From the sequence record KJ190157: a DNA stretch of 64,000 bases, one strand, 5' to 3'. The stretch comes from Escherichia phage vB_EcoS_FFH_1. The notes below the pieces were generated by a model, which was not told where the DNA came from, did no database searches, and saw only the letters and a list, made by a program, of their open reading frames with translations. A program made the position numbers and the translations under genes. Shown here piece after piece: positions 30,301 through 43,000 of this stretch (positions within the stretch are counted from its first letter, which is position 1; each line of letters begins with the position of its first letter).

Positions 30301-30308
30301 GTGCGTGA

Positions 30309-30385: not shown

Positions 30386-30390
30386 GAGGA

Positions 30391-30571: not shown

Positions 30572-30600
30572 ATTATAACAAGAAATTAAGCATTAAGCAA
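30572..30600 (-). promoter_or_regulatory. T5-type promoter driving tRNA block 30469-29999
   Basis: TTGCTT, 17 bp, TATAAT; tRNAs immediately downstream. Confidence 0.7.
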
Positions 30601-30952: not shown

Positions 30953-30961
30953 TTCCTTATT

Positions 30962-31035
30962 TTGAGTTAATTGGTACTCGGTGATAGAATCGAACTATCA
31001 CAACCGCCGTGTAAAGACGGGGTTCTCCCATTAAA
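30962..31035 (-). tRNA. tRNA-Val(UAC)
   Basis: perfect T-arm GATAG-AATCGAA-CTATC; loop GTGTAAA. Confidence 0.6.
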
Positions 31036-31178
31036 CTAACCGAGCAAAAGATTTGCTACTAAAAATGCTTCGAACAGAAATTCACAAAATCCCGCTAAAA
31101 ACATACCTATTGTAAAATCGGCAGAAAATACATAGGAATCTTTTATTTTCTGCTTCATTAAGTAAAACCAGATAGTCA

Positions 31179-31496
31179 TTAAAATCTCTCCATTCTAAAG
31201 CCAATGAAGTAAGGTGCATTACACGGAACATGCTTAAGATCTTTAAGAGTAATTTTACGTCCTAAGCGTCGTTCCATACAAGTGAAACATAGAACAATAT
31301 CTTTGGGCTGCCCTTTTCTTATCTGATCCCAGACCCAATCTTCAACCATACACATTTCATGGTATTGTTCACAGTCTCGACAATAATGACACTGATGTTC
31401 TGGTACTTTTTGATTTTTAATACACAGTTCAGTAAAGCGTTTTCCGGCTCTGCCAGACATTTCTGATATTGTTTCTAGAACTTTGTTAATATTCAT
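31179..31496 (-). CDS. Cys-rich hypothetical protein
   Basis: 105 aa; HQCHYCRDCEQYHEMC...CFTCMERR. Confidence 0.5.
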   Translation of the reverse strand: MNINKVLETISEMSGRAGKRFTELCIKNQKVPEHQCHYCRDCEQYHEMCMVEDWVWDQIRKGQPKDIVLCFTCMERRLGRKITLKDLKHVPCNAPYFIGFRMERF

Positions 31497-31513
31497 AACA
31501 AATTCCTTTAAAT

Positions 31514-31592
31514 TGGTAGATCGCCTGGGACTCGAACCCAGAACCTTCCGATTAAAAGTCGGATGCTACTAAACCTATTGAGCTAGCGACCT
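31514..31592 (-). tRNA. tRNA-Lys(UUU)
   Basis: perfect T-arm and anticodon stem TCCGA/TCGGA; loop TTAAAAG. Confidence 0.7.
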
Positions 31593-31781
31593 ATTAGTAG
31601 CCATTATATACTTCTTTAATAGAATGGACTTTTAAGTAAGGATGATTAATCCCAAACTCCGCCATTACTTCTTTTTCATCTTTTCCATAATGTGCAAGTA
31701 AGGATCTTGAGGTATTATTACCTAAACGTTTGTCATTTACTACTAATCGAAATACTTTCATTTCGAAATCCTCTATTAAAA

Positions 31782-31859
31782 TGGAAGCGGGTGCAGGAAT
31801 CGAACCTACCTCTTTCTAGCTTATGAGACTAGCGATCTCTACCAGAGATCTAACCCGCA
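31782..31859 (-). tRNA. tRNA-Met(CAU) (or Ile2)
   Basis: loop TTATGAG; mismatch at acceptor pair 1-72. Confidence 0.55.
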
Positions 31860-31865
31860 ATTGTT

Positions 31866-31941
31866 TGGTCAGTGCGGCAGGACTCGAACCTGCGACCCGA
31901 AGCATCCAAGGCTCCCACGCTACCAACTGCGCTACGCACTG
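31866..31941 (-). tRNA. tRNA-Pro(UGG)
   Basis: perfect T-arm GCAGG-ACTCGAA-CCTGC and acceptor; loop ATCCAAG. Confidence 0.65.
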
Positions 31942-31950
31942 TTAATTCTT

Positions 31951-32148
31951 TTATTGTGGGGGGATATTAATAATTCGTCCATCTACACAATAAACGGTAC
32001 TAGGGATTGTACTGTATATGTAGAAATTCTTTATATTACTCTCTCCGCCACAGAAATTTTTAGCAAATTCATACTCTTTATTAATGGTTGAGTCAAGTTT
32101 AAAACAACCAGTAAGTAGGAATACAGATAGCAATAAAACTTTCTTCAT
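31951..32148 (-). CDS. small lipoprotein
   Basis: 65 aa; lipobox LLTGC; promoter at 32181-32209. Confidence 0.5.
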   Translation of the reverse strand: MKKVLLLSVFLLTGCFKLDSTINKEYEFAKNFCGGESNIKNFYIYSTIPSTVYCVDGRIINIPPQ

Positions 32149-32180
32149 TTTGCTTTCCTTCTCTTCACTTTATAAAATAT

Positions 32181-32209
32181 ATTATACAGAGAATTAAGTA
32201 AAATAGCAA
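32181..32209 (-). promoter_or_regulatory. T5-type early sigma70 promoter
   Basis: TTGCTA, 17 bp, TATAAT. Confidence 0.7.
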
Positions 32210-32358
32210 ATGAATTTTTAATAAATTTACTTATTGTGTAGGCCACCTGGAGGCTATGAACCCCACGGCTGACAAAGAAGTTTGCGAGACTTCTCTTAAA
32301 AGCCAGAATAGACCCGCCGATCTATCGGAACCTACATAATAAGTAAACTTTATAGTGT

Positions 32359-32479
32359 CATTCTAGACAGGACTCGAACCTGTTATCACTTGTGCGGACT
32401 TACGAGAACCATTCTTTCACTCGAATCGAACGAGCTTCTGCCCTAGCCAAGCTGGTTTCCCCATCAACCACGCTAGAAT
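32359..32479 (-). ncRNA. tRNA-like stable RNA candidate (~120 nt)
   Basis: perfect T-arm ACAGG-ACTCGAA-CCTGT at 32367-32383 and perfect 7-bp acceptor pairing 32360-32366 with 32473-32479; long interior. Confidence 0.35.
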
Positions 32480-32601
32480 GTTTGATTGTTTTCAGTGCAA
32501 GAGTCCGAGTCTTGGACACGACCGCTTCGCAAGTACATAGGCAGCTTATCATGAGTCAGCACTTCCGAATTGCTAGCCCCGTGTTCTGCACTGAAATTTT
32601 A

Positions 32602-32949
32602 TTAGTTTAACCGTAAAGTATTATCTACTTCACCATTAATTGTTCGGCATTCCTCTGGGATTGCCGGTGTAGCCTTGTATTCCCACCACTCAGCACCATC
32701 ATATTCCCCACGTTCTAGCCAAGTTCCATCGGCAAACCATACATTACCATAAAGTAATTGTCCACCGTATCCAGAATCATATTCAAAGTCTAGGTTATTA
32801 AGAAACCCCTCAATGTCTTCTTCTGTATAATCTAAAGGTAATACCCAGACTTTTTTGTCCCCATAATACCCAAATTCTATTTTAATACACTTAACTTTAG
32901 AATTGGTATTTTTTAAGGCGAGTAACAGCTCTTCTTTAGCATTACGCAT
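32602..32949 (-). CDS. hypothetical protein
   Basis: 115 aa. Confidence 0.5.
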   Translation of the reverse strand: MRNAKEELLLALKNTNSKVKCIKIEFGYYGDKKVWVLPLDYTEEDIEGFLNNLDFEYDSGYGGQLLYGNVWFADGTWLERGEYDGAEWWEYKATPAIPEECRTINGEVDNTLRLN

Positions 32950-32974
32950 AGTATATTCTCATACTGAATTAAGT

Positions 32975-33051
32975 TGGCGCGACCGATGGGATTTGAACCC
33001 ACATTCTCTCCCGTGACAGGGGAGTACCATTACCAAGCCAGCCCCGGTCGC
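32975..33051 (-). tRNA. tRNA-Asp(GUC)
   Basis: perfect anticodon stem CTCCC/GGGAG, loop GTGACAG; perfect acceptor. Confidence 0.75.
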
Positions 33052-33060
33052 ATAATTCAT

Positions 33061-33246
33061 TTACTCAGCTTTGAGTTTTTCAATAGCTGCATTAAGTTCT
33101 TTAAGAAACTCTTTTCGTACATTAAGACGATTGAGACTTACTAGTATATCGTGTTTAAGTTCTTCGATGTATTTCTTTTCAACTTCAATATTGTTGATAG
33201 TGCTATCACGATGAACTTCTAGCTGCGCAATTACATTCTTGGACAT
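33061..33246 (-). CDS. hypothetical coiled-coil protein
   Basis: 61 aa. Confidence 0.4.
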   Translation of the reverse strand: MSKNVIAQLEVHRDSTINNIEVEKKYIEELKHDILVSLNRLNVRKEFLKELNAAIEKLKAE

Positions 33247-33348
33247 GCTTGTTTCCTCAGTTATTAATGAAAATGGTATCTGTGGCTGAATTCGATGTCA
33301 GCAATGATAGCTGGTTGGCTACCGGTTTACTTAACTCTACACAGAATT

Positions 33349-33431
33349 TGGCGGGCCGTGTAGGATTCGAACCTACGTTGTCTTTCGACATGGATTAACA
33401 GTCCACCGCCAAACCGCTTGGCTAACGACCC
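33349..33431 (-). tRNA. tRNA-Asn(GUU) with extended variable region
   Basis: perfect T-arm GTAGG-ATTCGAA-CCTAC; D-stem GCCA/TGGC; loop TTAACAG; 13-nt variable region. Confidence 0.55.
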
Positions 33432-33583
33432 TAAATTTATATTGCTGACTAGGATTTTCACCTAGACGGAGTTAGCACCGTAGCGTGTAGCGGCATACCT
33501 CTCCAAACCGTGCCTCATCTTTCAATTACGGAGACAGTGTTCCTACGCGTGCCTGAATTGATTCAACAATTCTTCCAGCAAAT

Positions 33584-33659
33584 TGGACGACCGCATGAGA
33601 TTTGAACTCACATAAAAAGGATTTGCAATCCTTCGCCTAAGCCCTTCAGCCAACGGTCG
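33584..33659 (-). tRNA. tRNA-Cys(GCA)
   Basis: perfect anticodon stem AAGGA/TCCTT, loop TTTGCAA. Confidence 0.7.
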
Positions 33660-33707
33660 GTTTATCTTGTTCTGTCATGTTGCTTCTCCAGTTCAATTTA
33701 TGTAATT

Positions 33708-33736
33708 ATTATACAGAACTTTTGGAAACTAAGCAA
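33708..33736 (-). promoter_or_regulatory. T5-type promoter driving tRNA block 33659-32975
   Basis: TTGCTT, 17 bp, TATAAT. Confidence 0.7.
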
Positions 33737-34016
33737 CTACATTTTTTAAGAATTTGATGCCTTTCTTTTTCTTCTTATATTTCCACGTTAATGGATTCTG
33801 TCGATTATGAACGCTTGAGATCTTTGTCTCGTCAAAGTTCTTCAATATCATGTAATCACAGGATAATTGTTCTAGTAGAATGTGATCACCGTCAAAAGCG
33901 TATACATAAGGCTGTTGACTAACACGATAATGATAGACTTTGTTAATTCTACGTTTCAGCGACTTATCAGCGCAGTAAATAAAGAAGTTTTCAGGATGCA
34001 TCAGCAGCTCCTTCAA
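33729..34016 (-). CDS. hypothetical protein
   Basis: 95 aa. Confidence 0.45.
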   Translation of the reverse strand: MKELLMHPENFFIYCADKSLKRRINKVYHYRVSQQPYVYAFDGDHILLEQLSCDYMILKNFDETKISSVHNRQNPLTWKYKKKKKGIKFLKNVVA

Positions 34017-34099
34017 TTTGGTGCACCCTGTTCGTATCGAACGAACCTCTCAAGCTCTTCAGGCAAGCGCTAATCCATCTCAGCTAAAGGTGCAAATTT

Positions 34100-34176
34100 T
34101 GGCAAACCTACTAGGACTCGAACCTAGACCGTACGGTTTTGGAGACCGACATGCTGTCCAGTAACACTCTAGGAAT
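34100..34176 (-). tRNA. tRNA-Trp(CCA)
   Basis: perfect T-arm CTAGG-ACTCGAA-CCTAG; loop TTTGGAG; two acceptor mismatches. Confidence 0.55.
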
Positions 34177-34184
34177 GCAGAAAT

Positions 34185-34261
34185 TGGCGTCCTGTGCGGG
34201 GATCGAACCCGCAAATCCTACCTTGAAAGGGTAGTGACTTTACCAGTTTGTCTAACAGGAC
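34185..34261 (-). tRNA. tRNA-Glu(UUC)
   Basis: perfect T-arm, anticodon stem CTACC/GGTAG and acceptor; loop TTGAAAG. Confidence 0.75.
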
Positions 34262-34268
34262 TTAAATT

Positions 34269-34359
34269 TGGTGTTGGATGATGGAGTCGAACCACCCGAG
34301 ACCCTTCCGAGTCGGCAGATTTACAGTCTGCTTCGCTACCTCTACGATACTAATCCAAC
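34269..34359 (-). tRNA. tRNA-Tyr(GUA), class II
   Basis: 91 nt with long variable arm; perfect anticodon stem GCAGA/TCTGC, loop TTTACAG. Confidence 0.7.
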
Positions 34360-34489
34360 ATATTTAGAAGTATTCAAAAATTCTCATTTAAACACTTTTA
34401 AATATGTTTTCAAATTAGGTAACTATTATACCAAGTTTTAAGGCACTGAGCAAGTCAAATTTTAAAGAACTTGCTCAGTGCTATATTAG

Positions 34490-34765
34490 TTAGTCGAACT
34501 TAGGAGTGACAGTTAAGGAGAACGGAAGTTCGAAAACTTCTTCACCCTCATTACTAACGGTAACTACACGACCTTTAAGTTCAGACATTAAAATATCAAT
34601 ATCAGCTTTTGCATCTGGAGCCATGCCAGCTTCAATACATTTAGCTTTAACCTCCGGTAGAAGATCTACGTTATAGAGATAGAGCCACTCAATCTCACCT
34701 TCCCAGTCTTCCCAGGATTTGCAGATTGCACTTTCAATACCAGTTGCTGCAACACGATTTTGCAT
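34490..34765 (-). CDS. hypothetical protein
   Basis: 91 aa; promoter 34785-34814. Confidence 0.5.
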   Translation of the reverse strand: MQNRVAATGIESAICKSWEDWEGEIEWLYLYNVDLLPEVKAKCIEAGMAPDAKADIDILMSELKGRVVTVSNEGEEVFELPFSLTVTPKFD

Positions 34766-34784
34766 TCGTTAACTCCTTCATCAA

Positions 34785-34814
34785 TTTATACAACTATTAT
34801 ATCAGAAATTTAAA
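34785..34814 (-). promoter_or_regulatory. T5-type early sigma70 promoter
   Basis: TTGCCT, 18 bp, TATAAT. Confidence 0.6.
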
Positions 34815-34855
34815 GCAAAAGGCAAGTACATTTTTAAAAATTCTGTTTGGAGGAG

Positions 34856-35062
34856 CTAAACTCCAGATTCTTCAGCTAAGTCTAGGCTAATAAGAGTTAT
34901 AGCCATAATTGCTGCACCGTGTTCTTTTTCTCCGGTGTTTTTAGCAGAGTCTATAATAGTCTTAATCTGTTCGTAATAGCCTTTTACTTCTTGTTCAATA
35001 CCTGCCTCGGCTATCATGCCTTTAGTCATGATTCGTTGCATAGTAATTTCACGGTTAGCCAT
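34856..35062 (-). CDS. hypothetical protein
   Basis: 68 aa. Confidence 0.4.
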   Translation of the reverse strand: MANREITMQRIMTKGMIAEAGIEQEVKGYYEQIKTIIDSAKNTGEKEHGAAIMAITLISLDLAEESGV

Positions 35063-35238
35063 GATGTTTCTCCAGCTTCATTTTTAATAGTTTACAAATG
35101 AAATCAACGTCTTCATCTGTACCTAGATCTCTATCTTCAAGAGTTGCCTTGAAGTTTTTAGTCAATTCCATGAGGATAACTTCTCTAGAACGACGTGTTG
35201 GCGGAGGTGGATGTCTATACATCTTATTTCCTTAGTTT

Positions 35239-35315
35239 GGTAGGGGTGGTGGGATTCGAACCCACAAAACCTGAATTTTAAGTCCAGTACCTATGCCAAT
35301 TCGATTACACCCCCG
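35239..35315 (-). tRNA. tRNA with UAA anticodon (Leu by anticodon), class I shape
   Basis: 77 nt; perfect T-arm GTGGG-ATTCGAA-CCCAC; loop TTTTAAG; discriminator A. Confidence 0.5.
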
Positions 35316-35321
35316 TGTAGT

Positions 35322-35510
35322 TTAGTCAATTACTTTTGAGGCTTCAAGGTAGTCGATATAGTGTATGTTTTCTACCGTAATCATATAATCTGCCACTTTA
35401 TCCATAGCTTGGGCTTCAGAGGTAGCTCTGGCTAACCTATATCCTTTTTTATATTCATCCGGGTATTCTCTATCTTGGATAAACACAACATAAACTATAT
35501 ATAGATCCAT
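35322..35510 (-). CDS. hypothetical protein
   Basis: 62 aa. Confidence 0.4.
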   Translation of the reverse strand: MDLYIVYVVFIQDREYPDEYKKGYRLARATSEAQAMDKVADYMITVENIHYIDYLEASKVID

Positions 35511-35529
35511 TTGTGACCTCTATTTAATT

Positions 35530-35607
35530 TGGTGGCTCCCCGAGGATTCGAACCTACGTACCTTCCGGTTATGAGCCGGGTGCTCATACCATATGAGCTT
35601 GAGAACC
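35530..35607 (-). tRNA. tRNA-Met(CAU), possibly initiator
   Basis: loop TTATGAG; three consecutive G-C pairs at base of anticodon stem; weak T-stem. Confidence 0.5.
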
Positions 35608-35613
35608 AGAATT

Positions 35614-35702
35614 TGGCGGAAGAAGCGGGAATCGAACCCACAAGGCTATATTTCAAACCGACAGATTAGCAATCTGCTGCAATACCGTTATGCTATTCTT
35701 CC
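35614..35702 (-). tRNA. tRNA-Ser(GCU), class II
   Basis: 89 nt; perfect acceptor; anticodon stem GCAGA/TCTGC; loop TTAGCAA. Confidence 0.6.
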
Positions 35703-35717
35703 GAATTTATAAGATAT

Positions 35718-35746
35718 ATTATATTAGAAATTTAGCTTCATAGCAA
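35718..35746 (-). promoter_or_regulatory. T5-type promoter driving tRNA block 35702-35239
   Basis: TTGCTA, 17 bp, TATAAT. Confidence 0.7.
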
Positions 35747-36242
35747 GAAAATTTTTCAAGTTTTCGGTAGACATCTCATCCACATCTACGGGAGAAACAA
35801 AGCCGTTTAATTTTCTAGCAAATTTTTCACCCGCAGGATCATTGTCCCCAACAGCTACCAATTTAAAAGGTAGTAATTTCAGTTGCTTTAATAACGCTTT
35901 TCCTGGAGAAGAACCCAACATTGCTAGGGCTGGATAACCAGCATTATGTAACGCAACTGCCTTAAATACAGATTCAGCAATCAATACTACTTTTTCATCT
36001 CCATTGAGAGTTTCTAGTCCCCATACACACTGGGTAGTAGAATAAGTAAAGTATTTAGCTTCAAAGGGGCACTTACCATGACCTTTTGGAGCAGAAGGAT
36101 TATAAGTTTGATAGCCCCTCAACATCCCGGAGAAGTCATACAACGGGACTGTTAGCCATCCTTCCGGACTTAACCAGCAATGATATTTATCTGTATCAAA
36201 TCCTCTAGATAAGAGGTGCTGTGTTAGCTCATCAACATTCAT
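35724..36242 (-). CDS. Toprim-domain protein
   Basis: start set at MNVDEL after AAGAGGA RBS; conserved Glu (LIAESVFKA) and VAVGDNDPAGEK (DxD) Toprim signature. Confidence 0.55.
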   Translation of the reverse strand: MNVDELTQHLLSRGFDTDKYHCWLSPEGWLTVPLYDFSGMLRGYQTYNPSAPKGHGKCPFEAKYFTYSTTQCVWGLETLNGDEKVVLIAESVFKAVALHNAGYPALAMLGSSPGKALLKQLKLLPFKLVAVGDNDPAGEKFARKLNGFVSPVDVDEMSTENLKNFLAMKLNF

Positions 36243-36272
36243 ATTTGGTTCCTCTTTCAAATTTATAGATAT

Positions 36273-36301
36273 ATTATACAGAGAATTTAGCATTCAAGCA
36301 A
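36273..36301 (-). promoter_or_regulatory. T5-type early sigma70 promoter
   Basis: TTGCTT, 17 bp, TATAAT. Confidence 0.7.
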
Positions 36302-36417
36302 TCAAATTTTTTAACTTTTTAGAGGAAAATCATAGGGCACTTAAGGATAGCAGATAAGTGGTGAGGACCAAAATTTGTGACCCCACTAAAAATCCTGGGG
36401 CAATTTTTAAAGACCCC

Positions 36418-36446
36418 TTGACATTTTCGCTGGGGTAGTGTAAAGT
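36418..36446 (+). promoter_or_regulatory. candidate sigma70 promoter for the plus-strand Gly/Gln/Cys module
   Basis: TTGACA, 17 bp, TAAAGT (weak -10). Confidence 0.4.
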
Positions 36447-36508
36447 ATATGTTATGGATGAGTGATCAAATAGACACACATTTTCTATATACTAGGAGGT
36501 GTCAAAAA

Positions 36509-37492
36509 ATGACAGAAGAAGTAACTAAGAGTCCTGAGACCGTCGCTAGCGTTGCAGCAGAATTGCACCGTCACGAGGAATCAGATAAGAAAAAGTGGGA
36601 GAAGGTCAGAGCCTACGAAGAAAAACATCGTGAACACGATGATAAAGAAGATGATGATGAACATTGTCATAAATATGGAAAACATAAAATGCAAGAACCA
36701 GTAAACGTATTCACTAGTGGCTTCCCTGGCCTACTGGGTGGTTATCCAGCAAACGCAAGTGCTTTCGGTGGTGAAGGTATGGGACTATTCGGAGCTATCC
36801 TAATCGGTGCTCTATTAACAGGCGGATTCGGTGGTTTCGGTGGATTCGGCGGACGTGGTGTAGTTGGTGAAGGTACCGCAGTTGATGCAGTACTTCAGAA
36901 CCAAGATACCGCTAGTATTCTAGCAGCTATTAACACTACTCGTACAGAAGCTAACCAGGGTACTGGAGCTGTTTTAAGCGCAGTTAACAATGGTTTTAGC
37001 CAGACATCCCAAAACCAGAGCCGTGATACTCAGTCTGTACTGACTACGATCTATGGTACAGGTGCTAATCTGTCTAATCAGATCTGTCAGGAAACTCGCA
37101 ACGTTATTCAGGGTCAGTTCGATCTTTCTCGCCAGATTGATCAATCTTTCGCAGCTAATCAGATAGCTCGTGCACAAGATAAGTTTGATTCTGCACAGAT
37201 CGCTTTCCAGCAGACTTTACAAACTAATAACCAGTTTGCCGCTGTTCAGGCTCAGATGTGTGCTAATCAGAACTCTCTGGAACGTCAGATCGCTGAATGT
37301 TGCTGTGAACTTCAGACTGCGATCGCTGGTGTAACTACTGCGCGTATCCAGGATGAGTTAGATGCATGTCGTCTACGTGAAGCAATCGCTGCGGGTAACG
37401 GTGCTAACGGTCAGGTAATTAATCAAATCGCTGTAAGTCTTGGTGCTATAACTCAGACTCTGGCTGGTCTGCAGGCTAAACTGCCGGCTTAA
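36509..37492 (+). CDS. Gly-rich/Gln-Asn-rich protein of unknown function
   Basis: start at ATG after AGGAGG RBS; charged His/Asp/Lys N-terminus, glycine-zipper hydrophobic segment (GGFGGFGGFGG), Q/N/S/T-rich C-terminus with CCC; E. coli-like codon usage. Confidence 0.6.
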   Translation: MTEEVTKSPETVASVAAELHRHEESDKKKWEKVRAYEEKHREHDDKEDDDEHCHKYGKHKMQEPVNVFTSGFPGLLGGYPANASAFGGEGMGLFGAILIGALLTGGFGGFGGFGGRGVVGEGTAVDAVLQNQDTASILAAINTTRTEANQGTGAVLSAVNNGFSQTSQNQSRDTQSVLTTIYGTGANLSNQICQETRNVIQGQFDLSRQIDQSFAANQIARAQDKFDSAQIAFQQTLQTNNQFAAVQAQMCANQNSLERQIAECCCELQTAIAGVTTARIQDELDACRLREAIAAGNGANGQVINQIAVSLGAITQTLAGLQAKLPA

Positions 37493-37513
37493 TATTAAGG
37501 GGAGGAGCCCATT

Positions 37514-37930
37514 ATGAGTAAATATGGTTTTGTAAATAACGGACTTAATCAAAGTATGGGCTCCCAGCAGCCCCTGCCTGGTCTGGATAACCCCTACTTA
37601 CAACAATTGCAACAGCGTTTAGCAGAAGCGCAACAGATGCAGCAACAACTCCAGCAAAACCCTGGAAGTGTGAGTCCTATGCAAATGATGCAGCAAATGA
37701 GCGGGCAGTCGCAAATGCCTCAACAAATGCAGCAACAGGTGCCTCAGCAGCAAGTTCAGCAACAAACCCAACAACCGCAGGTTTCTGCGGAAGGACAGGC
37801 AGTACTAGCCCTTTTCGAAGACTTCGCAAAGACAGAGGATGGGAAACAGCTTGTATCACTTATGGGTAAGTTTAATAGCTTCTGCCAAAGCCAAGTTGCA
37901 AAAGCTCAAAATGGTGGTAATAACTCCTAA
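37514..37930 (+). CDS. Gln-rich low-complexity protein
   Basis: 138 aa; strong RBS GGGGAGGAG; poly-Q/M tracts. Confidence 0.55.
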   Translation: MSKYGFVNNGLNQSMGSQQPLPGLDNPYLQQLQQRLAEAQQMQQQLQQNPGSVSPMQMMQQMSGQSQMPQQMQQQVPQQQVQQQTQQPQVSAEGQAVLALFEDFAKTEDGKQLVSLMGKFNSFCQSQVAKAQNGGNNS

Positions 37931-37939
37931 GGAGAAATT

Positions 37940-38134
37940 ATGTGTTGCAGAAAACCTGTTTCGTGCTGCCCAATGCCTGTAGCACGTTGTTGCTCTCCAG
38001 CAATGTTTACACAAATACCGGCGTTCAATCCCTTTGCCTTTAAGCCTACTCTTATCCTGCCCCCTAGAGTAGATTTTCAGTCAAGATTGGCCTCCCGTAT
38101 GGGTGGTTGCTGTACACCGAGAGTGTGGTTCTGA
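37940..38134 (+). CDS. small Cys-rich protein
   Basis: 64 aa; paired cysteines (MCC...SCCP...RCCSP...GGCCTP); RBS AAGGAGA; terminator follows. Confidence 0.5.
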   Translation: MCCRKPVSCCPMPVARCCSPAMFTQIPAFNPFAFKPTLILPPRVDFQSRLASRMGGCCTPRVWF

Positions 38135-38148
38135 AGAACCAAACAATA

Positions 38149-38182
38149 AAGCCCCTAGTCGAAAGACTTAGGGGCTTTTCTG
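38149..38182 (+). terminator. terminator ending the plus-strand module
   Basis: AGCCCCTA...TAGGGGCT followed by TTTT; A-rich on the other side. Confidence 0.7.
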
Positions 38183-38192
38183 TATTTAAGAT

Positions 38193-38230
38193 AAAAGAAA
38201 AGCCCTGCGCTCTCCAGGGAACGCAGGGCT
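38193..38230 (-). terminator. terminator after SPFH gene
   Basis: perfect 9-bp stem AGCCCTGCG/CGCAGGGCT, U-rich on minus strand. Confidence 0.7.
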
Positions 38231-38254
38231 TACTTCAGATGTTACATGCGGATA

Positions 38255-39202
38255 TTATTTATTACGCATATCCATGATCATTTGACCATCGTAGCCAGTA
38301 CCTACCACAGTCTGTGGTACACCACCTTGATATTTCTGAGCACGAATCATTTCGACTTCCAGTTGTTTCCAACGAATCATCTCAGGAGTAATGGTACGTT
38401 GCAGTGCGGCGTTAGCTTCAGCTTCTTTCTTAGCTGCGTACAGTTTAGCATCTGCGTCACGTTCATTAGCGATAGCTTGGTTGTTGCGAGCTTCACGATC
38501 TGCTTCTGCTTGTTTAACTTTTTGCTGTGCTTCCTGTTCAACACGAGCTAATTCAGCTTTAGCAGCATTAACCTGTTCTTCACGAACTTTGGTATTCTGT
38601 ACCTGTTCCATGATTACCGGTGGCAAAGTAATATCCTGAAGGAATACCTGCTTAACTGTGTAACCATATGGGCGTGCATACTCTTCAACTTCCTGTTGAA
38701 TTGCAGTTTGCAATTGAGCCTGAATTTTAGCATCAAACAAATCTTGTGCTTTAGGTACAGACTTACCAAACTCACGAATAGTAGACAGTAATTTTTCAGT
38801 TACATATTTGTCTAACGCTTGATCCTGAGTACCTGCGTTAATACGGTTAATTGGTGCCTTAGAACCATCAAACTGCAACATAACAGTCAGGTCAACAGTG
38901 GATTTAAACTTATCCTGGCTAGGAACCTGAAGTTTATCTAATTTTACAGCAATATCTTTTGTACTAAAAGTGTCGAAAGATGCAAATGGGTTTACAAGAT
39001 GGAAACCTGGTAATACTGGGTTAGGATCTACTTTACCCAGAAATGTTTGGGTTTTAACCGTACCATCAGAAACAATAGTATATGAATTAAAGGCTAGAAT
39101 CAAGCCTGCTAAACCAACTACAGCACCAATACCCCAACGTTTAATAGTACGAATTACTTTCTGCTCAGAAGTCAGTTCTTTCATATTTTTAGTATTAAAC
39201 AT
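38255..39202 (-). CDS. SPFH/band-7 (HflC/stomatin-like) membrane protein
   Basis: 315 aa; N-terminal TM, SPFH-like core, Ala/Glu/Gln-rich coiled-coil C-terminus. Confidence 0.65.
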   Translation of the reverse strand: MFNTKNMKELTSEQKVIRTIKRWGIGAVVGLAGLILAFNSYTIVSDGTVKTQTFLGKVDPNPVLPGFHLVNPFASFDTFSTKDIAVKLDKLQVPSQDKFKSTVDLTVMLQFDGSKAPINRINAGTQDQALDKYVTEKLLSTIREFGKSVPKAQDLFDAKIQAQLQTAIQQEVEEYARPYGYTVKQVFLQDITLPPVIMEQVQNTKVREEQVNAAKAELARVEQEAQQKVKQAEADREARNNQAIANERDADAKLYAAKKEAEANAALQRTITPEMIRWKQLEVEMIRAQKYQGGVPQTVVGTGYDGQMIMDMRNK

Positions 39203-39236
39203 ATATTTCCTTTGTTTTAGTTACAGTTAATAAAAT

Positions 39237-39311
39237 TGGCCGAGGTGACAGGATTCGAACCTGCATAAAGGAATTTAGAAGACTCCTGCCTCTCCCTTAG
39301 ACTACACCCCG
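39237..39311 (-). tRNA. tRNA-Arg(UCU)
   Basis: T-arm ACAGG-ATTCGAA-CCTGC; loop TTAGAAG; isolated just upstream of the SPFH gene. Confidence 0.6.
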
Positions 39312-39812
39312 TTTAAATATTTTTAAGAACTCTCGTAAAAACTCTTAAAAATACAGACGATACCGGGAGAGTCATAAGTCTCACTCATTAAGTATTTCAA
39401 GACAAAATACAGTAACGTCTATTATTTTCCAGTTTAAGTCAGGGTGACTTAGTGGTTATGTCCTGCGGTATATTGAGGACTCGGTTAGGCTTGGGGTCAT
39501 GACTTCCCGCCTTTTGCTGCTACTCAACAGGAGTTATCGCGAATTACCTGTGCTATTGTGCACCATTAGTGACATCTCTCATGTCAGCATTTCCCACTTT
39601 GTGGATAGCTTGAAAAACTACTCCGATATGGAGAAAAACTTCACTATCCTAGAATACCTTCTAAAGTTCTTCTTTAGCCTGGACATAGTTAAAGCGTAAT
39701 AAAACTATTCAGCAGACTGGTTGGTTAGTCTGGAACCAACTACCGCGTGGTTTAGGCAGTGCGCAACTAACCTCGGAAGCTTTTACGTTAAAAGCATCAG
39801 TTATCCAGTTCT

Positions 39813-39884
39813 TACCGACCGTAGGATTCGAACCTACATCTTCCACCAGTTACGGCTTGATAATACCAATTATACTAGGACGGC
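39813..39884 (-). ncRNA. tRNA-like element, identity unresolved
   Basis: perfect T-arm GTAGG-ATTCGAA-CCTAC and partial acceptor pairing, no convincing anticodon arm. Confidence 0.3.
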
Positions 39885-40122
39885 AGTGTTACTACATAAG
39901 TGATTTCCACACCCCACTATTTATAAATTAGAGAAGAGTTTAGGGGAGAGGTTTCAGACGCCTCATTTTACACGTTCTAGCCACTAACCGGGATTGCCGC
40001 CCCCTGTGTACTAGTTTTACAACTAACCCACCGACTCTATTCAACGAATCTTAGTGCTCGACGCATCTTACATTAAGACAAGTTCAGCGTAATCGGCTCG
40101 CTGTTCTCTAATTTATGAATAT

Positions 40123-40151
40123 ATTATACAGAATTTATAAGCATTTAGCAA
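40123..40151 (-). promoter_or_regulatory. T5-type early sigma70 promoter
   Basis: TTGCTA, 17 bp, TATAAT; points towards the tRNA-like element, tRNA-Arg and the SPFH gene. Confidence 0.7.
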
Positions 40152-40159
40152 ATAAATTT

Positions 40160-40603
40160 TTAATTAAATTCGCCAGCAATCTGAGCAGCAGTACCACCAT
40201 CGTAACGCCCAGGAAATTCTTCCTTAATCGCTTTCATCAGCATACCTTTTGTAATTCCAGGGTTTAGCTTAACTAATTCTGCAAAGTATTTACGAATCTC
40301 AGTATCAGATAACTGAGGAGGCAGATACTCCTGCAACCACTTATTTAGAATGTATTCATACTGAGCGGACTGCAAGCTATAACTATCAAGATCTTGACCA
40401 TGAAGTTTAGCTTTCATCTGGTTAATGCTTTTTAGTTGAGCTTTGAGATAAGACACAAATTGTTCAGAAGTGATGAAATCTTTATCAATACGCTGAAGAT
40501 CCCCGATTATGGTCTGATAGCTTTTAGCGACTTCTTTATCAGAACCATTAAACTTAGAATCCTGCAAAGCTCTACGCAAAACATCTAAAATATTCTCTTC
40601 CAT
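40160..40603 (-). CDS. GatB/YqeY-like domain protein
   Basis: 147 aa; overall resemblance to YqeY family, recalled not searched. Confidence 0.45.
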   Translation of the reverse strand: MEENILDVLRRALQDSKFNGSDKEVAKSYQTIIGDLQRIDKDFITSEQFVSYLKAQLKSINQMKAKLHGQDLDSYSLQSAQYEYILNKWLQEYLPPQLSDTEIRKYFAELVKLNPGITKGMLMKAIKEEFPGRYDGGTAAQIAGEFN

Positions 40604-40804
40604 TATTTCATTCCTAACGCTTGGTTAAAAGATTGTTCTGTCATAACTGCTGAGACTTTGGCGAAATCAAACTTTTTAGGGTTCGTAGTGATTTCAGCAA
40701 CGTTAGAAGTTTTAACAGTTTTCGTAGTACGAATACCGCGAGTGTTAACACCAATAATTACAACTGATTTCATATTTCGCTTCCTCTCATTAATTTATGG
40801 AAGT

Positions 40805-40833
40805 ATTATACGGAAATTTAAGTATTTAAGCAA
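40805..40833 (-). promoter_or_regulatory. T5-type early sigma70 promoter
   Basis: TTGCTT, 17 bp, TATAAT. Confidence 0.7.
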
Positions 40834-40841
40834 GTAAATTT

Positions 40842-41309
40842 TTAAGTTTTAGTGACAACAGGTTTATAAAACGTATGTCCCTTAATCTTAGTTGTTTTCT
40901 TAAACTTCTTTGTCCAGTAAGGTTTATCTTTACCACTATGGAAGTATAGTGCTCCATATGTAGGATCTTGTGGTAAATCAACGTAGTATATCACTCTAGC
41001 TAAATTCTTAGCGGTTTGCCAAGCCTCATCAGTTTTATCAACTTTTGGTCTCTTAGATACCCAAGAGAACTGGTTAGACTGATATACTACTTTACAGTAG
41101 GAATCTGGGAATTTACCGGAGTTTACACGGTTCTTAGTAACATGTGCAATCGCCGTCATTCCCTTTATGCCCTCACCACGACTTTCGAAATAGATATTTT
41201 TAGCAATGCAATCTATTTCTTTTGCATCGTGCGATGCCTGACTACTAAAGCTGAAGGTAAGGGCAGCTACTAAAAGCAAAGCTGCCTTCATTCTTTTTAC
41301 TCCTGCCAA
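40842..41309 (-). CDS. secreted cell-wall hydrolase (SleB-like)
   Basis: 155 aa; signal peptide; conserved NIYFESRGE...HVTKNRV region. Confidence 0.5.
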   Translation of the reverse strand: MAGVKRMKAALLLVAALTFSFSSQASHDAKEIDCIAKNIYFESRGEGIKGMTAIAHVTKNRVNSGKFPDSYCKVVYQSNQFSWVSKRPKVDKTDEAWQTAKNLARVIYYVDLPQDPTYGALYFHSGKDKPYWTKKFKKTTKIKGHTFYKPVVTKT

Positions 41310-41614
41310 TCATATTCAACACGATTGGGATTTTCTTTATACCCTAAGTCAAGCAAATCATTACGCATAGTTTGCTTAGCTACGGGATTCGAGGTTACTA
41401 GTACCACTTTCTTTGGTCTCTGCCCAAACTCTAAGAGTAAACGAAGAATTTGATAACCTTCCATACCATCTACAGCCAAGTCATTATCCATATAAACGAA
41501 GTGGCCTGTGGTATCAGTTTTATTCAGAAACTTTACAGCGGCTTCTGGGGTTCGAATGATAATGTCCATTCCGTGAAGATTACGCACATCATCAATCAAA
41601 ATATGAAAAGTCAT
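41297..41614 (-). CDS. hypothetical protein
   Basis: 105 aa; promoter 41645-41673. Confidence 0.5.
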   Translation of the reverse strand: MTFHILIDDVRNLHGMDIIIRTPEAAVKFLNKTDTTGHFVYMDNDLAVDGMEGYQILRLLLEFGQRPKKVVLVTSNPVAKQTMRNDLLDLGYKENPNRVEYDWQE

Positions 41615-41644
41615 AATAGCCTCGTTTCATCAATTTAAAAATAT

Positions 41645-41673
41645 ATTATACATATAATGTAGTAGATTAGCAA
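41645..41673 (-). promoter_or_regulatory. T5-type early sigma70 promoter
   Basis: TTGCTA, 17 bp, TATAAT. Confidence 0.7.
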
Positions 41674-42056
41674 ATACATTTTTAAATTGTGAAACTAGTA
41701 AACCGATAAACAGCCTAGAGGCGCCACAGGCCATATCTTATGAGCCATGTACCTTTGATCTAGGGTTTGAATCATCAACGAATACTTTGCATCTTTTAGC
41801 TTTAGAAGTTTAGAAGTTTGAGTTCTTTAAACTTTTCAGCTTTCATACTTAAATGTTGATCTTTGAAGTTGTGTCGATAATATCAACGACGCTTTGTTCT
41901 TACGTGTCAGCTTAAAAGGCTGGTGTAATAAACATAATCTCCAATAGATTATACTTTATAGTATGGTCAGCGGTCTTATTTAACCTCGTATTTCAACCGC
42001 TGCTGCGAGGTAAGATGCTTGGGCTTTCGTCTACCGATTTACTAGCTTTTAAATTA

Positions 42057-42695
42057 TTACTCTACTTCAATGAGGGTAGAGGCGTTAGACTCGGACAGAA
42101 CAAAGTCAACATTTGTTGCAAAGTCCTGGTATTCCTCGTCATGCTGCTTAATCAGCTTCTCCAGTTCCAGCGGATCAATCAAGAATGGAGTATTCTTGAG
42201 TTCCAGCAGGTTGAGCTGCATTTTAACTTCATCTTCGGAAGTTTTCTTATCGCGGGTAGCCATACTATCCTGCAAACGCTCATATTTAGCATCAAACTGT
42301 GCTTTCTGCGTATTAAACTTAACCGTAGCGGCATGGAACTGCTTACGCATGTTAGCCAGCAATTGGGCTTTAAGTTCCATAGAACGCTTAGCTTCAATTG
42401 CTTCCGCAACAGTCATCTTACGAGAGCCAATCTCAACGATTGTTTCCGCATTGCTTTTAATCAGAGCAGCTTTGATACGATCACGCTGGGACATCATATC
42501 CAGCAGAGACTGGAAATCAGTCTTAATACGAGTAGACAGATCAGCTACTTCGATTGCAGCGCCAACTACAACCTGGTTTTTATCCTTACCTTCACCAACA
42601 GCGATCAGAAGCTGTTGTTCAGTAGCTTTACGGATTTTAGCTTCCAGAGATTTGATAGTTGCCAGAGCGCGAGTTTTAGAGATACGAGTAGTCAT
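42057..42695 (-). CDS. coiled-coil protein
   Basis: 212 aa; strand consistent with neighbours and promoter; overlapping plus-strand ORFs treated as shadows. Confidence 0.55.
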   Translation of the reverse strand: MTTRISKTRALATIKSLEAKIRKATEQQLLIAVGEGKDKNQVVVGAAIEVADLSTRIKTDFQSLLDMMSQRDRIKAALIKSNAETIVEIGSRKMTVAEAIEAKRSMELKAQLLANMRKQFHAATVKFNTQKAQFDAKYERLQDSMATRDKKTSEDEVKMQLNLLELKNTPFLIDPLELEKLIKQHDEEYQDFATNVDFVLSESNASTLIEVE

Positions 42696-42748
42696 TATTT
42701 GCTTCCTTATATGAAGTTTGAGATTTGAATTTGTTTAAATTTGGTCTA

Positions 42749-42931
42749 TTACAGACCAATTGCCAGCAGAGTGCGCAGAACAGTATCGTTACTGTTATCA
42801 ATTTTAGGATTAGCACGATTTAGCAGATCAAAGATTTTCTGGATACCTGATTGACGTTCAGCCATACGACGGATACCCAGATTACGAGTAGCTTTCTTAC
42901 CATTTTTACGAACATTTTTAGATACTGGCAT
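42749..42931 (-). CDS. small basic protein
   Basis: 60 aa; promoter 42972-43000. Confidence 0.45.
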   Translation of the reverse strand: MPVSKNVRKNGKKATRNLGIRRMAERQSGIQKIFDLLNRANPKIDNSNDTVLRTLLAIGL

Positions 42932-42971
42932 ATTTGTTTTCCTCTTATTGTTTTCTCAAATTTATGAATAT

Positions 42972-43000
42972 ATTATACAGAATTTTGGGGCCGGAAGCAA
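42972..43000 (-). promoter_or_regulatory. T5-type early sigma70 promoter
   Basis: TTGCTT, 17 bp, TATAAT. Confidence 0.7.

What the first reader, a model, noticed from the sequence alone, without database searches (positions are those of the whole stretch)
39237..39884. tRNA-Arg(UCU) and a tRNA-like element isolated from the main tRNA cluster, flanking the SPFH/odd-module junction
A well-formed tRNA-Arg(UCU) sits 35 bp upstream of the SPFH gene start and a second tRNA-like element 500 bp further on, both 3.5 kb away from the main cluster and adjacent to the compositionally distinct module. tRNA genes often mark recombination or insertion junctions.
Basis: inference. Interest (0 to 1): 0.4.

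Follow-up and report, generated by a model that had tools for sequence, protein, structure and literature searches.

The report
tRNA mimic inside phage T5 RNAX
The isolated tRNA-Arg is an ordinary phage tRNA gene, and the "tRNA-like element" is a conserved tRNA-shaped fold that cannot decode, sitting inside a long non-coding RNA ("RNAX") that phage T5's GenBank record has listed as a stable RNA of unknown function, so the locus is known but still unexplained.

Summary
The window is a T5-like phage, about 99% identical to SP15 and NBEco001. Both elements are real. tRNA-Arg(UCU) lies at 39237-39311 (-). A cloverleaf lies at 39813-39884 (-); it scores 35.5 bits against Rfam tRNA, but ARAGORN rejects it.

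The ORF-free stretch 39312 to about 40116 matches T5 "rnaX", annotated as a stable RNA of unknown function. It runs from an early promoter into tRNA-Arg, the SPFH gene and a terminator.

The cloverleaf keeps its acceptor, D and T arms, with compensatory changes. It has a 6-nt anticodon loop and conserved mismatches. It lacks the encoded CCA that all 23 genuine tRNA genes here have.

A 14-position leader-trailer helix clamps it. Twelve positions pair in all 18 variants, and six carry compensatory changes. Relatives place other modules on the same scaffold: a long-arm cloverleaf, a Pro(UGG)-like one, or a non-tRNA insert.

No tRNA-end repeats flank the plus-strand module, and that module's boundaries are not at tRNAs. 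However, BF23's 4.27-kb deletion joins exactly in this element's T-loop, and HNH endonuclease genes are inserted beside it in relatives.

Function is inferred. Most likely it is a cis processing or stability module.

The parts
40123..40151 (-). Sigma-70 early promoter (TTGCTA, 17-nt spacer, TATAAT). It corresponds to T5 promoter 'P 16-17' and belongs to a repeated early-promoter family.
   Evidence: Promoter scan. Repeat family D1 (35702-35756, 36257-36311, 40107-40161). T5 annotations.
39312..40116 (-). RNAX-equivalent: a non-coding transcript of about 0.8 kb that ends at the base before tRNA-Arg. By homology to T5 its 5' end lies at about 40109-40116.
   Evidence: T5 record AY543070 annotates misc_RNA rnaX, 'stable RNA with unknown functions'. 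Alignment to the window. No ATG-initiated ORF longer than 22 aa on this strand; the longest of any start codon is 45 aa from GTG. No Rfam family other than tRNA.
39940..40109 (-). Variable 5' domain of RNAX (about 165-190 nt), enclosed by inverted repeat 40101-40121 / 39918-39938. T5 lacks it and has a simple hairpin there. In MSP1 and bux an HNH_3 endonuclease ORF occupies this position.
   Evidence: (I2). No protein-level remnant of the endonuclease.
39891..39904 (-). 5' strand of leader-trailer helix P1 (AUCACUUAUGUAGU).
   Evidence: Covariation count. MFE folds.
39885..39890 (-). Invariant single-stranded leader AACACU, with U at position -1 before G+1.
   Evidence: Invariant columns in A4.
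39813..39884 (-). tRNA-like module (TL). It is a cloverleaf with an intact D/T elbow. Its anticodon arm is a 3-bp inner stem with a 6-nt loop GUAACU. It has G1-U72 and U5xU68 and no encoded CCA.
39796..39809 (-). 3' strand of helix P1 (ACUGGAUAACUGAU).
39779..39795 (-). Conserved hairpin hp1 (GCUUUUA-ACG-UAAAAGC), with compensatory changes in relatives.
39621..39663 (-). Two further small hairpins in the RNAX 3' half: CUCC..GGAG at 39621-39633 and UAGAA..UUCUA at 39650-39663. The second changes to UAGGC..GCCUA in Klebsiella and Epseptimavirus relatives.
   Evidence: Read by eye from the sequences. The block is conserved. Not formally counted.
39237..39311 (-). tRNA-Arg(UCU) with encoded CCA.
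38255..39202 (-). SPFH/Band_7 membrane protein gene, downstream in the same transcription unit.
   Evidence: Pfam PF01145, E=2e-17.
38200..38231 (-). Strong hairpin terminator (13 bp) ending the unit. T5 annotates it as an 'efficient bidirectional terminator', next to a major DNA nick.
39823..39840 (.). T-arm identity shared with tRNA(CAU) at 35543-35560 and tRNA-Arg at 39250-39267. This is the crossover site of the BF23 deletion.
   Evidence: Repeat D5. BF23 junction.

Best explanation
SHOWN:
- The interval 39312 to about 40116 (-) is the ortholog of phage T5 rnaX, a non-coding RNA.
- By sequence signals and the T5 annotation, one early transcription unit reads: promoter 40151-40123, RNAX, tRNA-Arg(UCU), SPFH gene, terminator 38231-38200.
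- The 'tRNA-like element' is a tRNA-derived cloverleaf inside RNAX. Its acceptor, D and T arms are maintained by compensatory substitutions.
- It has a 6-nt anticodon loop, conserved acceptor mismatches and no encoded CCA.
- It sits on a conserved 14-position leader-trailer helix (P1) and is followed by a conserved hairpin.

INFERRED (most likely mechanism):
- It is a non-decoding tRNA mimic that works in cis on the early transcript.
- Host tRNA-processing enzymes that read the elbow and the U(-1)/G(+1) junction (RNase P, RNase Z or RNase E) would cut there. RNase III might cut on P1.
- These cuts would define the ends of stable RNAX pieces and would uncouple whatever lies upstream (a variable 5' domain, or an HNH endonuclease mRNA in relatives) from the tRNA-Arg/SPFH part.
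- RNase P cleavage at tRNA-Arg would create the RNAX 3' end.

SIDE EFFECT (shown in relatives):
- Its T-arm is a recombination substrate. In BF23 it is the crossover point of a deletion that removed the adjacent accessory region (Rad, the plus-strand module, SPFH, tRNA-Arg).
For: - Identity: T5 record AY543070 annotates rnaX plus promoter P16-17 plus tRNA-Arg at the homologous place. The alignment is given.
- Non-coding.
- Transcription signals.
- Cloverleaf covariation: 82% of cells paired, 8 pairs with double changes, 0 of 500 shuffles as high, and a T stem 98.8% paired. The elbow nucleotides U8, A14, G18, G19, U54-U55-C56 and A58 are invariant.
- Non-tRNA features: the anticodon arm is skipped by Rfam and rejected by ARAGORN. 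A 6-nt loop is present in every short-form variant recovered from Tequintavirus, Epseptimavirus, Klebsiella and Enterobacter phages, in three versions: GUAACU, UUCACC and GUAAAU. It is the only one of 24 tRNA-type genes here without an encoded CCA.
- P1 helix: 12 of 14 positions pair in 18 of 18 distinct variants, and 6 positions have compensatory changes. There are 46 double-changed cells against 14.1 +/- 3.7 in shuffles (0 of 500). Slid controls give 35-41% paired against 85%. The G-U pairs work only in RNAX sense. MFE folds recover P1 in five module forms.
- Conservation: TL plus scaffold is 81-93% identical at roughly full coverage in Enterobacter and Klebsiella phages, and its 5' scaffold strand is 87% identical at full coverage in Erwinia phage KEY. 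The neighbouring genes are 65-77% identical with partial coverage.
- Recombination.
Against: - No expression or processing data were available. No paper in the searchable library mentions RNAX.
- The module is dispensable or replaceable in nature. 32 phage records, including EPS7, carry an unrelated 46-nt insert. BF23 has only a chimera. T5 lacks the 5' domain.
- Thermodynamic z-scores are unremarkable: -1.64 for RNAX and -0.3 for the core.
- Leader-trailer duplex energy is not unusual. It is -10.0 kcal/mol here against -11.5 for tRNA-Asp and tRNA-Phe.
- High conservation could partly reflect endonuclease-driven gene conversion.
Confidence: 0.5

Rival explanations
1. A trans-acting tRNA decoy. 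The mimic is released or exposed and binds a host tRNA-targeting defence nuclease or a tRNA-binding enzyme through its intact top half. The altered anticodon loop makes it uncleavable or non-productive. That would make it an RNA anti-defence factor.
For: - It lies beside a region shown experimentally to hold anti-defence functions in SP15 and T5: Rad and tRNA-Tyr against retrons (bioRxiv 10.1101/2023.03.15.532788), and T5 tRNA-Lys against PARIS (PMC11464382).
- The elbow and acceptor are conserved while the anticodon arm varies freely between a 6-nt loop, a long arm and a Pro-like form.
- It is accessory and swappable, as anti-defence genes tend to be.
Against: - There is no experimental link.
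- The P1 clamp and the missing CCA argue against a free tRNA-like species.
- The fragments that Azam et al. tested, as read, do not mention it.
Confidence: 0.2
2. A decaying tRNA pseudogene with no function of its own. Its conservation would come from recent spread and endonuclease-driven gene conversion in the tRNA region.
For: - T5 AY587007 and VEc33 flag it as a pseudogene.
- It has acceptor mismatches, a 6-nt loop and no CCA.
- An ortholog in Erwinia phage KEY still looks like tRNA-Pro(UGG), and it duplicates a second Pro(UGG) gene in KEY's main cluster.
- It has been lost or replaced in EPS7-type phages and in BF23.
- HNH genes lie next to it.
Against: - Compensatory changes occur in the T stem, the inner anticodon stem, P1 and hp1.
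- The same 'defects' are conserved across genera rather than accumulating at random.
- It is more conserved than the neighbouring genes, and more than the adjacent genuine tRNA-Arg.
- The long-arm form has its own compensated hairpin, GGGGA/UCCCC against GGAGA/UCUCC.
Confidence: 0.15
3. One reading: the tRNAs mark an att-like integration or insertion junction of the compositionally distinct plus-strand module.
For: - The module (GC 0.458) is present or absent among relatives.
- tRNA-type sequences are used as crossover sites in BF23.
Against: - No tRNA 3'-end repeats flank the module.
- The module boundaries, 36352/36353 and 38125/38126, lie at a promoter block and a terminator, more than 0.6 kb and more than 1.1 kb from any tRNA.
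- None of the eight ORFs scanned against Pfam in 35.7-41.3 kb matched an integrase family. From general knowledge, T5-like phages are strictly lytic.
Confidence: 0.05
4. A genuine decoding tRNA with an unusual anticodon loop. Some records annotate it as tRNA-Ser, tRNA-Sec(UCA) or tRNA-Pro.
For: - Its Rfam score is above gathering and close to those of the genuine T5 tRNA-Trp (36.3 bits) and tRNA-Tyr (32.6 bits).
- ARAGORN calls some orthologs.
Against: - The called identity changes from phage to phage (Ser-ACU, SeC-UCA, '??? (aa)', Pro), which is incompatible with a conserved decoding role.
- It has a 6-nt loop and a 3-bp stem.
- It has G1xA72 in 7 of 16 variants.
- It has no CCA.
- The long form has no anticodon loop at all.
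Confidence: 0.03

Closest known systems
Phage T5 rnaX ('RNAX, stable RNA with unknown functions', GenBank AY543070, 40848-41566) together with the adjacent tRNA-Arg
   Same: - Same genomic position, between the YqeY-like gene with promoter P16-17 and tRNA-Arg.
- Same strand.
- Near-identical over the shared core (96-100% for TL and its scaffold) but only 79% over the RNAX 3' half, which carries indels.
- Same tRNA-like core.
   Different: - The window (SP15 type) has an extra 5' domain of about 165 nt.
- It lacks a 79-nt duplication that T5 has in the 3' half.
- The T5 record gives no structure or function.
tRNA pseudogene annotation of the same element (T5 AY587007; 'tRNA-OTHER' in RefSeq records)
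   Same: Same 72-nt element.
   Different: Covariation and cross-genus conservation found here argue that it is a maintained RNA fold, not a neutral relic.
mascRNA-type tRNA-like modules of long non-coding RNAs (MALAT1, MEN-beta). From my own knowledge, not tested here.
   Same: - A cloverleaf with a conserved top half and a degenerate anticodon arm, embedded in a long ncRNA.
- Proposed to recruit RNase P and RNase Z for end formation.
   Different: - Eukaryotic, with no homology.
- Here the module is clamped by a leader-trailer helix and lies upstream of a genuine tRNA.
- Cleavage is untested.
Phage T4 stable RNAs 'species 1' and 'species 2' in the T4 tRNA cluster. From my own knowledge.
   Same: Phage-encoded stable RNAs of unknown function, co-transcribed with phage tRNAs.
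   Different: No sequence relationship was tested. They belong to a different phage family.
Bacterial Y-RNA-like YrlA tRNA mimics, and the tmRNA tRNA-like domain
   Same: tRNA mimicry without decoding.
   Different: - There is no Rfam match to any such family at E<=1.
- ARAGORN finds no tmRNA.
- From my own knowledge, the topology here is that of a normal, non-permuted tRNA.

Membership tests
Canonical decoding tRNA (Rfam RF00005) | Score at or above the Rfam gathering threshold | tested here: met
   35.5 bits against 29, but the alignment skips the 18-nt anticodon arm.
Canonical decoding tRNA (Rfam RF00005) | Acceptor, D and T arms with the conserved elbow nucleotides | tested here: met
   T stem 98.8% paired with 3 compensated pairs. 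U8, A14, G18, G19, UUC and A58 are invariant. The acceptor has conserved mismatches at 1:72 (7 of 16 variants) and 5:68 (12 of 16).
Canonical decoding tRNA (Rfam RF00005) | A 5-bp anticodon stem with a 7-nt loop and a conserved anticodon | tested here: not met
   The arm has 3 inner base pairs and a 6-nt loop (GUAACU). The outer two positions are A-G. The loop differs by lineage, and the arm is replaced by a long arm in 41 records. ARAGORN does not call it.
Canonical decoding tRNA (Rfam RF00005) | A 3' CCA end, encoded in every genuine tRNA gene of this phage | tested here: not met
   23 of 23 genuine tRNA genes encode CCA. This element reads ...GGUCGGU-A-AGA. Addition after transcription could not be tested.
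T5 RNAX locus | Position between promoter P16-17 and tRNA-Arg, with sequence homology to T5 rnaX | tested here: met
T5 RNAX locus | Accumulates as a stable RNA during infection | not testable with these tools
   This rests only on the GenBank note in AY543070. No paper was retrievable.
tRNA-associated integration (att) junction of a mobile module | A direct repeat of the tRNA 3' end at the far side of the inserted module | tested here: not met
   The repeat scan of 35400-40300 finds only the generic T-arm. The junction sequences are shown.
tRNA-associated integration (att) junction of a mobile module | Module boundary coincides with the tRNA gene | tested here: not met
   The boundaries are 36352/36353 and 38125/38126. 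The nearest tRNAs are at 35702 and 39237.
tRNA-like processing module (mascRNA-like; RNase P/Z substrate) | Cloverleaf with a conserved top half and an unconstrained anticodon arm inside a longer ncRNA | tested here: met
tRNA-like processing module (mascRNA-like; RNase P/Z substrate) | Cleavage by RNase P at the 5' side and by RNase Z or RNase E at the 3' side | not testable with these tools
   Only indirect support: invariant U(-1)/G(+1), and a single-stranded 6-nt leader and 4-nt trailer between P1 and the acceptor stem.
Leader-trailer processing stem (RNase III-type, as around rRNAs) | A long conserved duplex formed by sequences flanking the structured RNA | tested here: met
   P1 has 14 positions, of which 12 always pair and 6 are compensated.
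Leader-trailer processing stem (RNase III-type, as around rRNAs) | RNase III cleavage within the duplex | not testable with these tools
   No data.

The most novel reading that the evidence does not exclude
The RNAX core may be an undescribed kind of phage structured RNA. It would consist of a conserved scaffold that carries interchangeable distal modules. The scaffold is the P1 helix with invariant C-C and G-G mismatches, an invariant AACACU/AAGA internal loop, and the base of the acceptor stem. The modules seen are three kinds of tRNA mimic or a non-tRNA hairpin. On this reading it acts in trans, for example as a decoy or sensor for host tRNA-directed defence or processing enzymes, and the module type is tuned to the host.
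Probability: 0.2. Interest if true: 0.65.

Novelty: already known. Interest (0 to 1): 0.38.

Why it matters
- T5-like phages are now central models for tRNA-based counter-defence (PARIS, retron Ec78).
- RNAX is a conserved, unexplained non-coding RNA that sits next to that accessory region.
- This analysis gives a concrete, testable architecture for it: a clamped tRNA mimic on a scaffold with swappable modules.
- It gives a sequence-level mechanism for how the neighbouring anti-defence and accessory genes are lost, namely T-loop recombination in BF23.
- It explains why annotation pipelines give this element contradictory names: pseudogene, Ser, Sec, Pro, Gln, OTHER.
- For the window itself, the result is that the finding is an ordinary, already annotated feature of T5-like genomes.

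Tried and rejected
- tmRNA or any other Rfam family: ARAGORN finds no tmRNA, and only tRNA matches were credible in Rfam. The E<=1 scan covered 35500-43000 and the gathering-score scan covered the whole window.
- Hidden protein gene in the 0.8-kb gap: the longest ATG-initiated ORF on the transcribed strand is 22 aa (the longest from any start codon is 45 aa from GTG). There is no tblastn trace of the endonuclease or of the bux_98-type ORFs that relatives carry there.
- att-like tRNA repeats around the module: none found.
- Thermodynamic evidence: fold z-scores are unremarkable. P1's duplex energy is within the range of other tRNA flanks. I therefore rely on covariation only.
- An outer helix 'P0' (GGAA/UUCC in the window): the pairing register differs between lineages and the alignment is ambiguous, so I dropped it.
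- Homologs outside T5-like phages:
  - The metagenome scan returned mostly bacterial tRNA-Thr-type genes plus a few T5-like contigs.
  - The bacterial genome scan returned only chance hits.
  - One loose viral pattern gave mostly noise.
- Literature on RNAX or T5 stable RNAs: nothing was retrievable in the library. The primary papers from the 1980s could not be checked.
- NR01 and Gostya9 as further tRNA-bounded deletions: they instead carry extra DNA next to tRNA-Arg (a 561-nt ORF in NR01; about 540 nt of unannotated sequence in Gostya9), and Gostya9 additionally lacks the plus-strand module.
- DnaA-box reading of the CTGGATAAC motif: only 7-8 of 9 positions match, and a key position is wrong. 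I did not pursue it.
Full report
**What the window is.**
- Megablast of 38200-41700 finds 459 phage records.
- The best hits are Tequintavirus phages NBEco001 and SP15, at 99.2-99.3% identity over 100% of the query.
- The window is therefore a T5-like (Demerecviridae) genome.

**Checking the observation.**
- ARAGORN finds 22 tRNA genes, all on the minus strand. Twenty-one lie between 27984 and 35702. One, tRNA-Arg(UCU), lies at 39237-39311. Rfam scores it 49.3 bits.
- The tRNA-Arg 3' end is 34 nt upstream of the ATG of a 315-aa SPFH/Band_7 protein gene at 38255-39202 (Pfam E=2e-17).
- ARAGORN does not call the second element. Rfam's tRNA model matches 39813-39884 (-) at 35.5 bits against a gathering score of 29, but only by jumping over the 18-nt anticodon arm.
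- The plus-strand module has GC 0.458 against 0.393 for the whole window.
- The elements therefore exist where stated. They do not flank the SPFH/module junction, because both lie upstream of SPFH.

**What is really there: RNAX.**
- Between tRNA-Arg and the next gene (a YqeY-like ORF, 40160-40603) lie about 850 nt. On the transcribed strand, no ATG-initiated ORF is longer than 22 aa, and the longest ORF from any start codon is 45 aa from GTG.
- T5 record AY543070 annotates the homologous interval as misc_RNA rnaX, 'RNAX, stable RNA with unknown functions'. It is 719 nt long and runs from promoter 'P 16-17' to the base before tRNA-Arg.
- T5 record AY587007 marks only the 72-nt element, as a tRNA pseudogene. 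RefSeq records call it tRNA-OTHER, sometimes flagged pseudo.
- Other records call it tRNA-Ser, tRNA-Sec(UCA), tRNA-Pro, tRNA-Gln or 'Undet'.
- In the window, a promoter TTGCTA-17-TATAAT lies at 40151-40123 (-). It belongs to a repeated early-promoter family whose other copies are at 35702-35756 and 36257-36311.
- A 13-bp terminator at 38231-38200 (-) follows SPFH. T5 annotates it as an efficient bidirectional terminator.
- The inferred unit is promoter, RNAX (about 40116 to 39312), tRNA-Arg, SPFH, terminator.
- Compared with T5, the window's RNAX has an extra 5' domain of about 165 nt, enclosed by inverted repeat 40101-40121 / 39918-39938. In T5 the two arms are adjacent and form a plain hairpin. 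The window also lacks a 79-nt duplication that T5 has.

**The tRNA-like module (TL).**
- I collected orthologs from annotated phages, IMG/VR and metagenomes. This gave 16 distinct short-form sequences (alignment A2).
- On a cloverleaf, 82% of cells pair, and 8 pairs show changes on both sides. None of 500 shuffles reach the observed covariation, and slid controls fall to 27-46%.
- The T stem is 98.8% paired, with three compensated pairs: GUAGG/CCUAC, GCAGG/CCUGC, GUGGG/CCCAC and AUAGG/CCUAU.
- The nucleotides that build the tRNA elbow (U8, A14, G18, G19, U54-U55-C56, A58) are invariant.
- The departures from a real tRNA are themselves conserved:
  - G1-U72 or G1xA72.
  - U5xU68 in 12 of 16 variants.
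  - U13xU22 in 14 of 16 variants.
  - An anticodon arm of only three inner pairs, compensated C-G to G-C, with a 6-nt loop.
- The loop is GUAACU in Tequintavirus, Klebsiella and Enterobacter phages. It is UUCACC or GUAAAU in Epseptimavirus. For one ortholog ARAGORN reports a two-base 'anticodon'.
- All 23 genuine tRNA genes of the window encode 3'-CCA. TL does not.
- In Erwinia phage KEY the ortholog is a canonical-looking tRNA-Pro(UGG), although KEY has a second Pro(UGG) in its main cluster. This suggests TL descends from a duplicated tRNA gene.

**A clamp and a scaffold.**
- The 5' and 3' flanks of TL are as conserved as TL itself, and they co-vary with each other.
- I joined the 18 distinct flank pairs (A4) and counted a 14-position helix P1. 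Its strands are AUCACUUAUGUAGU (39904-39891) and ACUGGAUAACUGAU (39809-39796).
- Twelve positions pair in all 18 variants, and six carry compensatory double changes. Two positions are invariant mismatches (C-C and G-G).
- There are 46 double-changed cells against 14.1 +/- 3.7 in shuffles (0 of 500). Slid controls give 35-41% paired against 85%.
- Several positions use G-U pairs. On the opposite strand these would be A-C mismatches, so the helix belongs to RNA of RNAX sense.
- Between P1 and the acceptor stem lies an invariant internal loop, AACACU on the 5' side and AAGA on the 3' side.
- A compensated hairpin, hp1 (39795-39779), follows.
- MFE folding of five different forms independently recovers P1, the central module and hp1.
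- As a control, the predicted leader-trailer duplex energy of -10.0 kcal/mol is not unusual among this phage's tRNA genes (-11.5 for Asp and Phe). Fold z-scores are also unremarkable. The case for P1 therefore rests on covariation.

**Module swapping.** The same scaffold carries different inserts.
- The short cloverleaf is the majority form among the 510 matching records.
- A long form has its anticodon loop replaced by an extra compensated hairpin (GGGGA..UCCCC or GGAGA..UCUCC). It occurs in 41 records, mostly Klebsiella phages including Sugarland, and also in a metagenome contig (L182) with Tequintavirus-type flanks.
- An unrelated 46-nt insert retains only GCC...GGA of the acceptor. It occurs in 32 records, including EPS7 and STG2.
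- TL plus scaffold is 81-93% identical, at roughly full coverage, between the window and Enterobacter and Klebsiella phages. In Erwinia phage KEY the 5' scaffold strand is 87% identical at full coverage, and TL aligns at 84% over about half its length.
- Over the same comparisons the flanking protein genes are 65-77% identical with partial coverage, and the neighbouring tRNA-Arg aligns only over its T-loop.
- Further blocks of RNAX are also conserved across genera, including two small hairpins at 39621-39663 that I read by eye.
- No homolog was found in bacterial genomes.

- No tRNA 3'-end repeat flanks the plus-strand module.
- Comparison with Epseptimavirus shows that 36353-38125 is cleanly absent there. 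Homology resumes within 25 nt, and PnuC/NadR genes lie to the left.
- MSP1 lacks 36331-38031 and has a homing endonuclease at 38180-38195. Gostya9 has Rad directly next to SPFH.
- The module is therefore an indel-polymorphic cassette. It is bounded by a promoter block and a terminator, not by tRNAs.
- tRNA-type sequence is nevertheless used for recombination here:
  - BF23 carries a chimera. The first three-quarters of TL are fused to the 3' end of tRNA(CAU) (window 35533-35607), within a 15-nt T-loop identity. This deletes the equivalent of 35558-39822: the rest of RNAX, tRNA-Arg, SPFH, the module, the TOPRIM protein and tRNA-Ser.
  - The BF23 paper reports this deletion of about 4 kb and attributes it to neighbouring nucleases (PMC10644984). 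The passages of that paper that I read do not mention a T-loop junction.
  - A metagenomic phage (L147/L186) switches from Tequintavirus-type to Epseptimavirus-type sequence inside the T-loop, which leaves an A-C mismatch in the T stem.
  - An HNH_3 endonuclease ORF sits immediately upstream of the scaffold in MSP1 and bux. Other ORFs, with no family match, sit immediately upstream of tRNA-Arg in several genera.

**Context.**
- The 189-aa TOPRIM ORF (35724-36293) matches in size and domain the Rad anti-retron protein described for SP15. The BF23 paper equates T5's TOPRIM 'primase' ORF with Rad.
- T5 tRNAs are known counter-defence agents (PMC11464382).
- AGA makes up 16% of Arg codons in the window's ORFs. 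From my own knowledge AGA is rare in E. coli, so a phage tRNA-Arg(UCU) is the classical supplement.

**Mechanism.**
- Shown: the element's identity, its non-coding nature, the transcription signals, the maintained fold, the features incompatible with decoding, and the recombination events.
- Inferred: the function.
- I favour a cis-acting processing or stability module.
  - The intact elbow, the invariant U(-1)/G(+1), and the short single-stranded leader and trailer fit recognition by RNase P and 3' tRNA-processing enzymes (established enzymology, from my own knowledge).
  - P1 resembles the leader-trailer stems that guide RNase III around rRNAs.
- A trans-acting decoy for tRNA-directed host factors is the main alternative.
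- A neutral pseudogene is disfavoured by the covariation, but it is not excluded, given natural losses and possible homing-driven conversion.

**Verdict.**
- The finding is real but ordinary for this phage group. The tRNA-Arg and RNAX features have been in T5's GenBank records since the AY-series deposits.
- The junction interpretation is only partly right.
- What remains of interest is that RNAX has no known function, and it now has a specific, testable architecture.

Noticed in passing
window 35533-35607 (-): A tRNA with a CAU anticodon (Rfam 40.3 bits, CCA encoded) is missed by ARAGORN. Relatives annotate it as tRNA-Met. Its T-loop is the other partner of the BF23 deletion.
   Followed up: partly
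window, whole (tRNA cluster 27984-35702): Neither ARAGORN nor Rfam finds a tRNA-Gly in the 64-kb window, whereas Erwinia phage KEY has Gly(UCC). Every other amino acid is represented.
   Followed up: no
window 35930, 36741, 37583, 39800: The 9-mer CTGGATAAC occurs only four times in 64 kb, and all four lie within 3.9 kb: in Rad, twice in the plus-strand module, and in the P1 3' strand. No shuffle out of 100 reaches 4 occurrences. Its meaning is unknown. It resembles a DnaA box only loosely.
   Followed up: partly
window 36353-38125 (+): The plus-strand cassette has ORFs of 347, 138 and 64 aa, no Pfam match and GC 0.458. It is cleanly absent in Epseptimavirus and Gostya9. The 138-aa ORF contains glutamine-rich 12-nt periodic repeats at 37630-37774.
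   Followed up: partly
window 38180-38250: T5 annotations place a major single-strand DNA nick ('nick 3, 32.6%') next to the bidirectional terminator that corresponds to 38200-38231. MSP1 has a homing endonuclease inserted at this same spot. I did not map the exact nick position in the window.
   Followed up: no
window 39922-40111; L034:3725-4207; L035:4250-4732: Where the window has its RNAX 5' domain of about 190 nt, MSP1 and bux have a 160-aa HNH_3 endonuclease gene, and T5 has only a hairpin. There is no protein-level remnant of the endonuclease in the window. Paralogous HNH genes lie at 48717-49145 and 5518-5661.
   Followed up: partly
L147 / L186 (human-gut metagenome contigs): A natural recombinant of the tRNA-like module joins a Tequintavirus 5' part to an Epseptimavirus 3' part, with the switch in the T-loop. 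This gives an A51xC63 mismatch, while P1 is kept through wobble pairs.
   Followed up: partly
L003 (AY587007): The tRNA coordinates annotated in this T5 record are shifted by about 68 nt relative to where ARAGORN finds the genes in the same sequence. Its promoter and repeat features are in register.
   Followed up: no
window 39621-39663 (-): Two small hairpins in the RNAX 3' half are conserved out to Klebsiella phages. One is compensated: UAGAA/UUCUA against UAGGC/GCCUA. This suggests that RNAX has several structured domains.
   Followed up: partly
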